Origin: Octopus vulgaris
Taxonomy: Eukaryota
Length of the DNA: 64,000 bases
NCBI GenBank assembly: GCA_951406725.2
Contig: OX597814.1
Location: 73,718,001 to 73,782,000, forward strand
Reading direction: 5' to 3'
Part shown: one piece after another, positions 177-63,352 of the stretch
Layout: each line of letters begins with the position of its first letter
How positions within the stretch are numbered: the stretch's first letter is position 1
The notes under the pieces: generated by a model
Databases searched by the model: none
What the model was told of the DNA's origin: nothing
Seen by the model: only the letters and a program-made list of their open reading frames with translations
Position numbers and translations under genes: made by a program

Positions 177-719
177 AATGAAAGACGGAATTTTTATAAA
201 TTACGACAGTTGTTTCGACACATCTCGCAAAGATCCCTCACGGGTGGGATACTTAACAACTGGTTCAGGAGCATTCGACAATGCTGATGGGTCTCTTCGG
301 GTGATAAATAGATATAACTCGTTAAAATAACAGTTCCGCAATGTATCTTCTCATTTCGTGTAAAGAAAAGTAGCAAATTAAAGTTTATATCTACATTTAT
401 ATAAATGATCAATAACAAAATAACAGATAAAAAAAGAAACAAACACACAATATCTCGAGAAAAGTATTAAAAATACCGTTAACAAATATGCATGTATAAA
501 TGCCCTCGCGTAAGTTGTATGGCGCATGTATATTCGCTCAGACAAGTATCCCCGAAGATGTAAGCACACGCACAAGTGTGGTTTGGAGTCATTCGTTCAC
601 AAAGTGAAATAAATAGCTACTTGGTGTTTATAAGAATGGGGAGGTTGAAGCTAATCTTAATTCATCCACACCTTAAAAGTAAATTAGGCTAACAGTTACT
701 CAAATTCATTCTCACTGCA

Positions 720-1210
720 TTGTGCGAATGTACATTTATATGCATGTAGGCAGCTTCAGTCTGTTAGAAATTCTATTAATGATTTTCTCATTGATGCACA
801 AAATAGACAGGGATTCCTCGGAACAGAGTCAGTCTCTGCTGGAAATGATATTAAATGATATTGCGTGCCTTACTATGGACCAAGTTATGCAATACTTAAT
901 TTTATCTCCCTTCAGTTACCACTGAATTGGCCAAAATTGGCCAAAGATGTTGAATGTCTCTTATTGATTCTTGACATGGTTGCGATAACGATTCTTGAAT
1001 GAATCAGCCGTTTGCCTAATATAAACATACGGCCCTCCCAGTGTGTGTACGGTACATTTATATACAAGACTTGTACTCATGCAGAGGTTGATCAACGGGC
1101 ATTTTGATTTTACTCTGCATGAGCATTTATTATACTTATTTGTATATATGGCAGTTCTTACTTCATTTTCTGACGTTGTTACCGTGTTAGCTGTATCATA
1201 ATCATTTCTG

Positions 1211-5269: not shown

Positions 5270-5670
5270 GGCGCAGGAGTGGTTGGGTGGTAAGTAGCTT
5301 GCTTACCAACCACATGGTCCCGGGTTCAGTCCCACTGCGTGGCCCCTTAGGCTAGTATCTTCTACTATAGCCTCGGGCCGACCAAAGCTTTGTGAGTGGA
5401 TTTGGTAGACGGAAGCTGAAAGAAGCCTGTCGTATATATGTAGATGTATATATGTGTCTGTGTGTGTGTGTTTGTCCCGCCAACATCGCTTGACAACCGA
5501 TGGTGGTGTGTTTACGTCTCCGTAACTTAGTGGTTCGGCAAAAGAGGCCGATAGAATAAGTGCTAGGCTTACAAAGAATAAGTCCTGGGTCGATTTGTTC
5601 AACTAAAAGGCGGTGCTCCAGCATGGCCGTAGTCAAATGACTGAAATAAGTAAAAGAGTAAAAGAGTAAA
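5270..5670 (+). mobile_element. Full-length tRNA-derived SINE (family S1, bipartite with internal TA/TG microsatellite)
   Basis: 5' GGCGCAGGAGTGG with A-box-like TGGTTGGGTGG and B-box-like GGTTCAGTCCC; (AAAAGAGT)n tail; closely similar copy at 62932-63352. Confidence 0.9.
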
Positions 5671-12214: not shown

Positions 12215-12450
12215 TTATCTTTTATCTTTTACTTGATTCAGTCATTAGACTGCAGCCTATGATGGGGCACCGCCTTGAAGAACTTTTAGTCGAATGAATC
12301 AACCCCAGTACTTATTCTTTTGTTAAGCCTGGTACTTATTCTATCGTTCTCTTTTTGTCGAACCGCTAAGTTACGGGGACGTAAACACACTAACACCGGT
12401 TGACAGGTGGTGGTGGGAGACAAACACAGACACAAAAATACACAAGCACA
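12215..12450 (-). mobile_element. 3' half of SINE S1
   Basis: Reverse complement of the 5470-5670 body (ACCGCTAAGTTACGGGGACGTAAACAC). Confidence 0.85.
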
Positions 12451-12454
12451 CACG

Positions 12455-13326
12455 CCTGGTCTGATCAATAAGTATCCGGGCTGCTGCTATAGTAACGAAG
12501 CTAAAGCTCATAGAGTAAAGCCGCTTGGTAAAGATTGACCTTGAACTCTGCTATGCATGCGCACTAAATTTTAACGTTCTAGCTCACTTTCATTGTTTAC
12601 AGCAGTACTTAGAAGGAAGGCATGTAGCGTGTGATCGTAGCATTGACCATGACAGAAAACGTTGAGCAGAGAATCTGCATCAAATTTTGCCAAAAGCTTG
12701 ACGAAACCTGCTCAGGGGCCTACGCAGAGTTTTCAAAAAGTTTTCATCGTTCCCGACACAATCAAGGAGGTCTTGTGCAACTGAAACCCGAGTGTCTTTT
12801 TGGTCAGCTGAAAGCAGTTTTGATACAAACTTGGCAGACATGCGTCTCATACCCAAATCTTCAGTGATAATGGACTGAATTGAATCGTAACTAATCTGCA
12901 CATCCTCTGATAACTCACGGATGGTGATTCGACGATTTCCCCTCACAGCTGCACTCACATCTGCGATGTTTTTCTCAGTTCTGCTGGTTGCGGTTCTCCC
13001 AGAACGTTCGTCAATATGGACATTTTTCTGCCATCTTGGAAACATATGAACCACTCGTACACTCATACACTCCTCTCCATACACTTCCTGCAACTTTGTG
13101 TAGGTCTCTGAGCAGGTATCACCATGACAACTTTCTCCATCATAGTCAATGCGATGATTACTTTCTGTCCAAGCACGGCTGCAAACAGCGGAAGAGAGCT
13201 AGAACGTTAAAATTTAGTGTGCATGCACAGCAGAGTTCAAGGTCAATCTGTGCCAAGCGGCTTTACTCTGCGTGTTTTAACGTCGTTACTATAGCAAAAG
13301 TCCAGATACTTATTGGTCATACCTTG
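12455..13326. mobile_element. Non-autonomous mariner derivative built from two facing 5' ends
   Basis: Left arm (+): TIR, 5' UTR and MTENVEQRICIKFCQKL up to ~12731. Right arm (-): same TIR/UTR, then HTH (DERSGR...RRITIRELSE...SAKFVSKLL) ending at DENFLK. No DDD domain. Confidence 0.85.
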
Positions 13327-13359
13327 CATATAAATGAGTAACAAAGATGTACAGGTATC

Positions 13360-13991
13360 AATTCATTACGGCTGTTTCAAGCGATCTCATTTAATTGATT
13401 AATGAAAACATTACATCATTGCAAAGAAGCCGTTTTTTCATATGACAGCATAGGCTTCAAATACAAAGGATCAACCAACTGCTTTAACATGTTCATATCA
13501 CCAACTGGAGTTCAAATATTTACATTGATTTTGCAAGCTTATGCAATGTTGAAACTACAAGGATTTAGAGGTAAGTAGAAGTTATAGTTGGGGGGGAAAT
13601 GATTGAGAGAAGTGACCTAATTACCAAATCTTAGAAGCCAATAGGAGGAATGTCTTCTATGTGTAGGTAACTAGGTCACTACTTTCAATTATTCCTCCTC
13701 ACACTATGACCTCTACTAACCTCTAAATTCTTGTAGTTTCAACACTCATTCTGCCAAAGAAACAGCAGCAAAATCAATATGAATATTTGAGCTGCAGTTG
13801 AGAACCAGATTCTGCCAAAAAATTTAGCAGCGGAATCATTGTAAATATTTGCTCTCTGTTGATGATATATATTTTCTTGTCTTTTATGCATGAGGTCTAT
13901 GCGGTCATCTGATGAGAAACGTTTTCTTGGTAGTAATGTAATGCTTTCATTGCTCAATTAAAGGAGACGTTCGAAACGGCCGTAATGAATT
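13360..13991. repeat. ~630-bp imperfect fold-back (head-to-head pLTR-like arms)
   Basis: 13360-13625 aligns to the reverse complement of 13666-13991 (e.g. AATTCATTACGGC, CAACTG.AG.TCAAATATT, GTTGAAACTACAAG.ATTTAGAGGT), with indels. Confidence 0.85.
13905..13988 (+). ncRNA. Type I hammerhead ribozyme motif with long stem II
   Basis: Stem I TCAT/ATGA; CTGATGA 13909-13915; stem II GAAACGTTTTCTT...AAGGAGACGTTC with inner AGTAATG/CATTGCT; GAAA 13973-13976; palindromic CGGCCG stem III; GUA triplet 13982-13984. Confidence 0.75.
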
Positions 13992-14059
13992 CACACTTAT
14001 ACATCTTTGTTACTCATTTACACACACACACACATGTATGTTTTGTTTTATGTATGTAT

Positions 14060-14103: not shown

Positions 14104-14295
14104 GAGTGTGTGTGTGTCCTCGTGTCTGCGTTTGTCCCTCACGGTGTTGGTGCGTTTATATCCCCGTACCTTAGTAATTCAGCAAAATAGACCGATAGAC
14201 TTTAAAAAAATAAGTCCTGAGGTGGATTGGTTCGACAAACACCCTTCATAGCGGCAGTCAAATGCCTGAAATAAGTGAAAGATAAAAGAGAAAAA
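14100..14295 (+). mobile_element. Degenerate 3' half of SINE S1
   Basis: TTTGTCCC...GTTGGTGCGTTTATATCCCCGTA...AATAAGTCCTG...AAAAGATAAAAGAG. Confidence 0.7.
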
Positions 14296-28685: not shown

Positions 28686-29027
28686 TCTCTTTTACTCTTT
28701 TACTTGTTTCAGTCATTTGACTGCGGCCAGGCTGGAGCACCGCCTTTAATCGAGCAACTCGACCCCAGGACTTATTCTTTGTAAGCCACGTACTTATTCT
28801 ATCGGTCTCTTTTGCCGAACCGCTAAGTGACGGGGACATAAACACACCAGCATCCGTTGTCAAGCAATGCTAGGGGGACAAACACAGACACACAAACATA
28901 CACGCACACATATACATATACATATATACGACGGGCTTCTTTCAGTTTCCGTCTACCAAGTCCACTCACAAGGCTTTGGTCGGCCCGGGGCTATAGCAGA
29001 AGACACTTGCCCAAGGTGCCACGCAGT
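28686..29027 (-). mobile_element. SINE S1, 5'-truncated
   Basis: Reverse complement of S1 body and tail, with internal CA/TA tract. Confidence 0.88.
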
Positions 29028-63093: not shown

Positions 63094-63138
<45 letters not shown>

Positions 63139-63352
63139 ATGTTTGTGTGTTTGTATTTGTACCTCCAGCATCACTTGACAACTGATGTTGGTGTGTTTAC
63201 ATCCCCGTAACTTACCGGTCCGGCATAAGATACCGATAGAATAAGTACTAGGCTTACAAAGAATATGTCCTGGGGTCGATTTGTTCGACTAAAGGCGGTG
63301 CTCTAGCATGGCCGCAGTCAAATGTCTGAAACAAATAAAAGAATAAAAGAAT
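62932..63352 (+). mobile_element. Full-length SINE S1
   Basis: Co-linear with 5270-5670. Confidence 0.92.

What the first reader, a model, noticed from the sequence alone, without database searches (positions are those of the whole stretch)
13360..13991. 630-bp fold-back with outward-facing hammerhead ribozymes, one intact with an unusually long stem II
The right arm holds a complete type I core: CUGAUGA, a ~57-nt stem II hairpin, GAAA, palindromic CGGCCG stem III, and a GUA site after 13984. The left arm holds the mirror copy with the CTG of the core deleted but GAAACAGCCGTA retained. Palindromic minimal stem III is the known signature of Penelope/retrozyme hammerheads that cleave as dimers. 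A transcript from either strand would be a long hairpin ending at a ribozyme. No Penelope ORF lies inside, so this may be a non-autonomous ribozyme-bearing element.
Basis: partly seen in the sequence, partly recalled or inferred. Interest (0 to 1): 0.72.

Follow-up and report, generated by a model that had tools for sequence, protein, structure and literature searches.

The report
Dead Penelope ends with long-armed hammerhead
This fold-back is two decayed, back-to-back end pieces of a Penelope-like (Hydra-type) jumping gene, one of which still spells a predicted self-cutting RNA whose side arm is far longer than in described relatives; this copy is likely inert, and cutting is untested.

Summary
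The fold-back is real (13331-14020, arms 78% alike) and the right arm holds a complete type I hammerhead; the left core is dead. It is not a separate non-autonomous element. Longer sister copies run without a break into a GIY-YIG endonuclease, and an intact relative encodes a 1,071-aa RT-endonuclease with the Hydra-clade motifs. Head-to-head pairs, a tail on one end and (TA)n/(CA)n flanks are textbook Penelope-like insertion marks. The two hammerhead-bearing ends come from different subfamilies, so this copy is a composite. An intact core is common (21 of 52 arms). A read-through RNA is predicted to bury the ribozyme in the long hairpin (about 63 kcal/mol penalty). The 51-64-nt stem II is a lineage-wide, covarying feature, against 10-24 nt in 25 published Hydra families; this scan found such long arms before on other DNA. 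One lead from my own data: an A[A/T]TAAA hexamer sits in stem II 22-26 nt before the cut (54 of 68 copies), possibly a hidden poly(A) signal; RNA contigs gave no support.

The parts
13331..13645 (-). Left arm: 5'-truncated 3' end (pseudo-LTR) of a Hydra-type Penelope-like element, subfamily A2, no tail
   Evidence: Best matches are A2 copies; 14 of 16 diagnostic sites A2-like, 0 A1-like; 6.9% from the A2 majority
13363..13445 (-). Dead hammerhead: CUGANGA box broken, GAAA and GUA kept, stem III palindrome mismatched
   Evidence: Sequence, alignment, fold z -0.18
13646..13800 (+). Inner right arm, subfamily A2, mirror of the inner left arm; end approximate
   Evidence: The 8 best matches shown for 13646-13806 are 7 A2 copies and one labelled A1; 85% to the inner left arm
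13807..14020 (+). Outer right arm: 214-nt 5'-truncated copy of subfamily A1, repeating about 50 nt of homologous position at the junction
   Evidence: 16 of 16 diagnostic sites A1-like; 7.6% from the A1 majority
13905..13988 (+). Type I hammerhead with intact core, 4-bp stem I and 8-nt palindromic stem III; predicted cut after 13984
   Evidence: Sequence; covariation across 31 relatives
13916..13972 (+). 57-nt stem II: basal helix, internal loop, apical hairpin; core-proximal G-C pair needs a 1-nt bulge in this copy
   Evidence: -15.9 kcal/mol; basal and apical helices covary in the lineage
13957..13962 (+). ATTAAA in the 3' strand of stem II, 22 nt before the predicted cut; candidate poly(A) signal or protein-binding loop
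   Evidence: Position; A[A/T]TAAA in stem II of 54 of 68 lineage copies
14019..14035 (+). TA then (CA)n flank at the short end, 34 nt after the predicted cut
   Evidence: Sequence; short ends cluster at +30 to +41 in families A, B, B2, C
12458..13330 (-). Neighbour, not part of the element: decayed mariner-type transposon with about 160-bp inverted ends abutting the left end
   Evidence: Inverted repeat I1; weak HTH_48 (Mos1) hit E 0.0098, below the curated cut-off; translation

Best explanation
The fold-back is a decayed head-to-head pair of 5'-truncated terminal repeats of a Hydra-type Penelope-like retrotransposon, its two hammerhead-bearing ends come from two different subfamilies, and the one intact hammerhead is predicted to be silent here because it would need a partner copy and would be buried in the long hairpin. 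Shown: homology to a dispersed family, linkage to the endonuclease, subfamily split, covarying stem II, palindromic stem III. Inferred: the element's RT-endonuclease nicked TA-rich microsatellite DNA, began copying at one of two fixed internal sites (about 34 or about 290 nt past the ribozyme cut) and stopped early, leaving an inverted A2 pair. A later A1 insertion, or a template switch, supplied the outer right arm, and a mariner landed at the left end. In active relatives the ribozyme likely works as a dimer through the 8-nt palindrome in tandem transcripts; the long stem II is likely a conserved RNA signal for the element's life cycle.
For: 1,704 first-look candidates and 109 scored matches in a 2.8-Gb genome. 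Of 28 sister loci, 12 are inverted pairs and 11 of these have the tail on exactly one end; 18 of 19 short ends and 13 of 19 tail ends abut microsatellites, background 0.12. The arm is colinear with a Zn-finger/GIY-YIG remnant 1.5-2.4 kb upstream in L036, L060, L065, L068, L077, L078, L120, L124, L129. RT-region fragments lie in family copies L075 and L071. Intact relative L110: RVT_1 E 6e-4 (below cut-off), GIY-YIG above cut-off; RWR, DKT, CxCX5C, CxxC..E, CxH, as described for Hydra (PMC8557442 section 11). Covariation 0.512 against 0.257 shuffled, 0 of 500; slid controls <=0.171. For L110 the double hammerhead equals the cofold minimum, -58.8 kcal/mol. Whole fold-back -308.9 against -245.7 with the ribozyme enforced. 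All 8 sister pairs scored have same-subfamily arms; this one does not.
Against: No full-length RT copy of the window's own family A was found; the RT link rests on two weak fragments (E 1e-11, 4e-5) and on relatives whose endonuclease is 40-50% identical. No tree with published Hydra proteins was built. L110 is longer than the 'generally <3 kb' Hydra elements, and the tail (about 255 nt in A, 120 nt in B) is longer than the 30-40 bp in print. The order of events at this locus is not resolved. The shuffle control ignores relatedness, and the structure was partly drawn from these sequences. In trans, two RNAs ending inside the right arm could still dimerise (-45.3 against -49.3 best cofold).
Confidence: 0.88

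Rival explanations
1. A non-autonomous ribozyme element (retrozyme-like or fold-back SINE) that moves as this 690-bp unit using Penelope proteins in trans.
For: No ORF inside the fold-back; most sampled copies are short. Animal retrozymes are proposed Penelope derivatives (bioRxiv 10.64898/2026.07.22.740005).
Against: Only the window's own locus matched the 690-nt query end to end among the 40 candidates scored. Centres and arm lengths differ per copy. The chimeric junction was seen only at this locus among loci held. No head-to-tail hammerhead repeat here. Longer copies are coding.
Confidence: 0.06
2. A host-kept RNA element: an active ribozyme or a long double-stranded editing or small-RNA substrate preserved by selection.
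For: Core and palindrome are intact in the right arm; a read-through RNA would form over 250 base pairs. The locus is present in other DNA runs.
Against: 21 of 52 family arms keep an intact core and 18 of 52 also the palindrome. The right arm is 7.6% from its subfamily majority, near the 9.3% mean, so no special conservation shows. The arms carry many indels.
Confidence: 0.05
3. A MITE or other DNA-transposon derivative with long terminal inverted repeats that captured a hammerhead.
For: Palindromic shape, TA at both ends, mariner neighbour.
Against: One-sided tails, unequal arms, single-arm copies (16 of 28) and linkage to a GIY-YIG ORF.
Confidence: 0.01

Closest known systems
Hydra clade of C-terminal EN+ Penelope-like elements (Craig et al. 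2021, PMC8557442; includes Hydra-1_Obim). Seen: abstract, passages, section 11, supplement search and parts 2-3 of 59
   Same: RT then GIY-YIG; RW[K/R], DKT, CxCX5C, CxxC and CxH; (TA)n targets; sense type I hammerhead near the 3' end; inverted 5'-truncated copies; tail on one end
   Different: Stem II plus loop is 10-24 nt in the 25 tabulated Hydra families, 51-64 nt here; stem III is an even 8-nt palindrome; longer ORF with N-rich inserts, longer 3' region and tail
Minimal and palindromic-helix-III hammerheads of Penelope-like elements (Cervera and de la Pena 2014, PMC4209133). Seen: parts 1-2 of 4
   Same: Short helix I, palindromic helix III, dimer requirement; paired motifs 100-700 bp apart on opposite strands are described there as truncated elements
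   Different: Helix II there is 6-8 bp; low cleavage was measured there, none here
Poseidon element PAc of the green anole (Frangieh et al. 2024, PMC11167929). Seen: parts 1-2 of 4
   Same: Two fixed ends downstream of the hammerhead defining a tail; ends do not coincide with the ribozyme cut; AT-rich targets
   Different: Different clade; its ORF starts inside stem II, whereas in L111 the ATG lies about 210 nt after the cut
PLE-X1_sMoe hammerhead of Selaginella (File S2 of PMC8557442)
   Same: A Penelope-like hammerhead with a long stem II (53 nt as tabulated), so long arms have a precedent
   Different: Plant, endonuclease-less, Chlamys-related; flagged non-canonical; no sequence comparison made
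Metazoan non-LTR retrozymes (bioRxiv 10.64898/2026.07.22.740005, part 1 of 5 seen; PMC7229834, search listing only)
   Same: Type I dimer-type hammerhead related to Penelope terminal repeats
   Different: Retrozymes are head-to-tail non-coding repeats; this is a head-to-head remnant of a coding element

Membership tests
Hydra-clade PLE | Single ORF with RT followed by C-terminal GIY-YIG endonuclease | tested here: met
   Relative L110. For family A the endonuclease remnant is colinear with the arm and RT fragments occur in L075 and L071; nothing coding lies inside the window copy
Hydra-clade PLE | RWK motif and DKT in place of DKG | tested here: met
   RWR at aa 37 and DKT at aa 124 in L110; not recoverable for family A itself
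Hydra-clade PLE | CxCX5C linker; no CCHH inside the endonuclease; CxxC and CxH around conserved E and N | tested here: met
   L110 endonuclease read by eye; CxCX5C also in family-A copy L065
Hydra-clade PLE | Insertion into (TA)n | tested here: met
   18 of 19 short ends and 13 of 19 tail ends abut TA/CA-type microsatellites
Hydra-clade PLE | Phylogenetic placement with published Hydra proteins | not tested
   No reference Hydra proteins were available as session sequences
Hydra-clade PLE | Generally under 3 kb (descriptive, not diagnostic) | tested here: not met
   L110 ORF alone is 3.2 kb, with N-rich inserts; such inserts are described in rotifer Penelopes (PMC3846280, passages)
EN+ PLE insertion structure | Inverted 5'-truncated terminal repeat, tail at one end only | tested here: met
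   11 of 12 inverted sister pairs have one tail; the window copy has none
Type I hammerhead ribozyme | CUGANGA, GAAA, NUH and three stems with covariation | tested here: met
   Right arm sequence; 14 of 19 pairs show two-sided changes in 31 sequences; left arm fails
Type I hammerhead ribozyme | Self-cleavage | not testable with these tools
   No assay; contigs cannot show RNA ends
Non-LTR retrozyme | Head-to-tail tandem non-coding units each with a hammerhead | tested here: not met
   Only two arms, on opposite strands; the family is linked to an endonuclease
Neptune-clade PLE (my first guess) | CX2-5CxxC finger, CCHH in the endonuclease, DKG | tested here: not met
   L110 has CxCX5C and DKT

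The most novel reading that the evidence does not exclude
In this retrotransposon lineage the long stem II hides a poly(A) signal: A[A/T]UAAA lies 22-26 nt before the hammerhead cut and a U/GU-rich tract follows it, so ribozyme and polyadenylation machinery aim at the same site. The hairpin would then act as a switch between a polyadenylated end, a ribozyme-cut end and the read-through RNA needed to copy the tail.
Probability: 0.15. Interest if true: 0.62.

Novelty: new variant of a known kind. Interest (0 to 1): 0.28.

Why it matters
The locus itself is ordinary transposon debris. The lineage matters modestly: long-armed hammerheads number over 13,000 for one palindrome class alone in this genome, Rfam missed the one here, and what hammerheads do in Penelope-like elements is an open question in the papers read. 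Young intact copies such as L110 and L111 give a natural substrate for testing dimer cleavage and the role of the long arm. If the hexamer is a working poly(A) signal, it would tie ribozyme folding to RNA 3'-end choice.

Tried and rejected
Rfam: no hammerhead family at E<=10. Neptune assignment: dropped after the motif check. An antisense ORF in the AT-rich region upstream of the hammerhead: considered by eye, not supported, since the endonuclease reads on the hammerhead's strand. Pfam found no relevant family for three decayed endonuclease pieces and none for the whole N-rich ORF; domains appeared only on cut pieces. PDB sequence search: one chance hit, E 3.8. RNA: no RNA holder listed for 13100-14020; the RNA-guess run X7 had little or no cover of the centre; neither is evidence. 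For the young family (L111:6850-7300), contigs of three RNA-guess runs read through the predicted cut, and none of the 23 loose ends shown (26 not shown) was a poly(A) run; contigs are unstranded and cannot show ends, so this is inconclusive. The hexamer is not general to long arms: in stem II of only 3 of 30 loci of other palindrome classes. 21 of those 30 have one within -45 to +25 nt of the cut against 0.11 background, but they fall into a few related families. By my count 5 of 25 published Hydra rows have it in the short 5' flank. Lunse et al. (PMC5785218) is not held; I saw it only as a citation, and it may already describe long stem II variants. Five paper searches listed no paper on long-stem-II Hydra hammerheads or on a poly(A) signal inside one; subscription journals and Repbase/Dfam were not searchable.

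Full report
Observation. The inverted repeat runs from 13331 to 14020 around a 10-nt loop. The arms agree at 252 of 324 aligned columns, and the RNA folds at -308.9 kcal/mol, z -33. The right arm has every element of a type I hammerhead at the stated places, with a 57-nt stem II and a predicted cut after 13984. The left core is broken; against its own subfamily the change is C3>A plus a 1-nt loss rather than a CTG deletion. Contigs from two other runs span the centre with 2 differences, and one from a third covers the right hammerhead with none.

It is the end of a coding retrotransposon. The unit gave 1,704 first-look candidates, of which 40 were scored. Among 28 sister loci, 12 are inverted pairs of unequal arms and 16 are single arms. 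11 of the 12 pairs carry an extension on exactly one end, and ends mostly abut TA/CA microsatellites. Walking 5' led, on the hammerhead's strand, to a decayed Zn-finger plus GIY-YIG region colinear with the arm in at least nine loci. That protein found 11,976 candidates, 150 scored, some in open frames over 1,000 aa. L110 encodes 1,071 aa with RT and GIY-YIG domains and the motifs listed for the Hydra clade. RT-region fragments occur in family copies L075 and L071. No full-length copy of the window's own family was recovered, and no tree was built. Inverted truncated copies with a one-sided tail are the standard insertion form (PMC8557442 passages; PMC3846280 passages), and opposite-strand hammerhead pairs 100-700 bp apart were already noted in Schistosoma (PMC4209133).

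This copy is a composite. The left arm and the inner right arm match subfamily A2; 13807-14020 matches A1 and repeats about 50 nt of homologous position. Over the last 145 nt the right arm is A1 at 16 of 16 diagnostic sites and the left is A2 at 14 of 16. All 8 sister pairs scored have same-subfamily arms at 81-89% identity, against 77% here. The subfamily labels come from my own motif rules. Neither end has the tail, and a decayed mariner-type element abuts the left end. Later insertion and template switching both fit; I could not separate them.

The ribozyme here is likely silent. 21 of 52 family arms keep an intact core, so survival needs no selection. Stem III gives two base pairs as a monomer. 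For the young relative L110 the double hammerhead is the cofold minimum; for the window copy it is 4 kcal/mol above the best cofold. The only partner nearby is dead and on the other strand. Forcing the ribozyme fold in a read-through RNA costs about 63 kcal/mol. Element ends do not mark the cut: short ends cluster at +30 to +41 nt in four families; long ends lie near +290 in family A (8 copies) and +154 to +158 in B and B2. This parallels the two internal start sites and dispensable cleavage reported for PAc (PMC11167929).

The long stem II. One search listed 41 distinct candidates downstream of endonuclease ends, and 59 endonuclease hits gave none within the DNA held. 38 candidates had 51-60-nt arms (one, L145, of an unrelated nested type). 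I dropped three: two low-scoring calls and one mis-set start. On 31 chosen sequences, RNAalifold recovered stem I, the apical hairpin and stem III. A named 19-pair structure had 91.5% paired cells and covariation 0.512 against 0.257 shuffled; slid controls reached 0.171 at most. The inner palindrome pairs, which can only form between two copies, change on both sides (G-C to A-U in 12, A-U to G-C in 6). Relatedness inflates these counts. Published Hydra hammerheads have 10-24 nt here (25 families); one plant element has 53 nt. Other long-armed classes are abundant: 13,164 matches against 10 for the control. The scan had already reported long-armed Hydra hammerheads in this and other genomes; I reached that reading before the look-up (notes).

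The hexamer lead. A[A/T]TAAA sits in stem II 22-26 nt before the cut in 54 of 68 copies across families A, B, B2, C and related ones, switching only between the two commonest poly(A) signal forms, with a CTT(T)GTT-type U-rich tract downstream. That layout matches metazoan poly(A) sites, and occlusion in a hairpin is known for HIV-1 (both recalled, from no call). Against it: the families share ancestry, the sequence is AT-rich, the As may simply pair or bind protein, most other long arms lack it (3 of 30), and RNA-guess contigs showed no poly(A) end (inconclusive). I give it 0.15.

Verdict. A real but ordinary decayed insertion of a Hydra-type Penelope-like element. Its hammerhead is a long-armed variant that I did not find in the papers searched, though one key paper and the repeat databases were out of reach. 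Interest 0.28.

Noticed in passing
window 12458-13330: Decayed mariner-type transposon forming a second fold-back directly beside the finding; a 150-codon open stretch has a weak Mos1 HTH match.
   Followed up: partly
window 715-1158 (-): Remnant of another Penelope-like Zn-finger/GIY-YIG endonuclease, 31% identical to L110.
   Followed up: partly
window 12218-12453, with related copies at 5453-5665, 14142-14295, 28688-28910, 63125-63350: Short high-copy repeat ending in a CA-rich tract, SINE-like; it abuts the mariner's left end.
   Followed up: no
L110:340-7978 and L111:3672-7168: Young, intact Hydra-type elements with a 1,071-aa ORF, long asparagine-rich inserts, an inverted 5' copy and near-identical hammerheads; candidates for biochemical work.
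   Followed up: partly
L111:318 and L111:1717 (+), L116:7107 (-): Another hammerhead family with an 85-86-nt stem II (-41.7 kcal/mol in one copy) and ACAGCTGT palindrome; parent element not identified.
   Followed up: no
L171-L199, first 20 nt after the predicted cut: In the commonest other long-armed families AATAAA lies just 3' of the cut instead of inside stem II.
   Followed up: partly
L005:1210-1500 and other family-A tails: The tail has GTAG/GTGAGT-like splice-donor words on the antisense strand and, by eye, a short open frame on the sense strand; meaning unknown.
   Followed up: no
L063 and L064 (G000:C14): A 7.5-kb segmental duplication carries two near-identical family-A copies; these are not independent insertions.
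   Followed up: no
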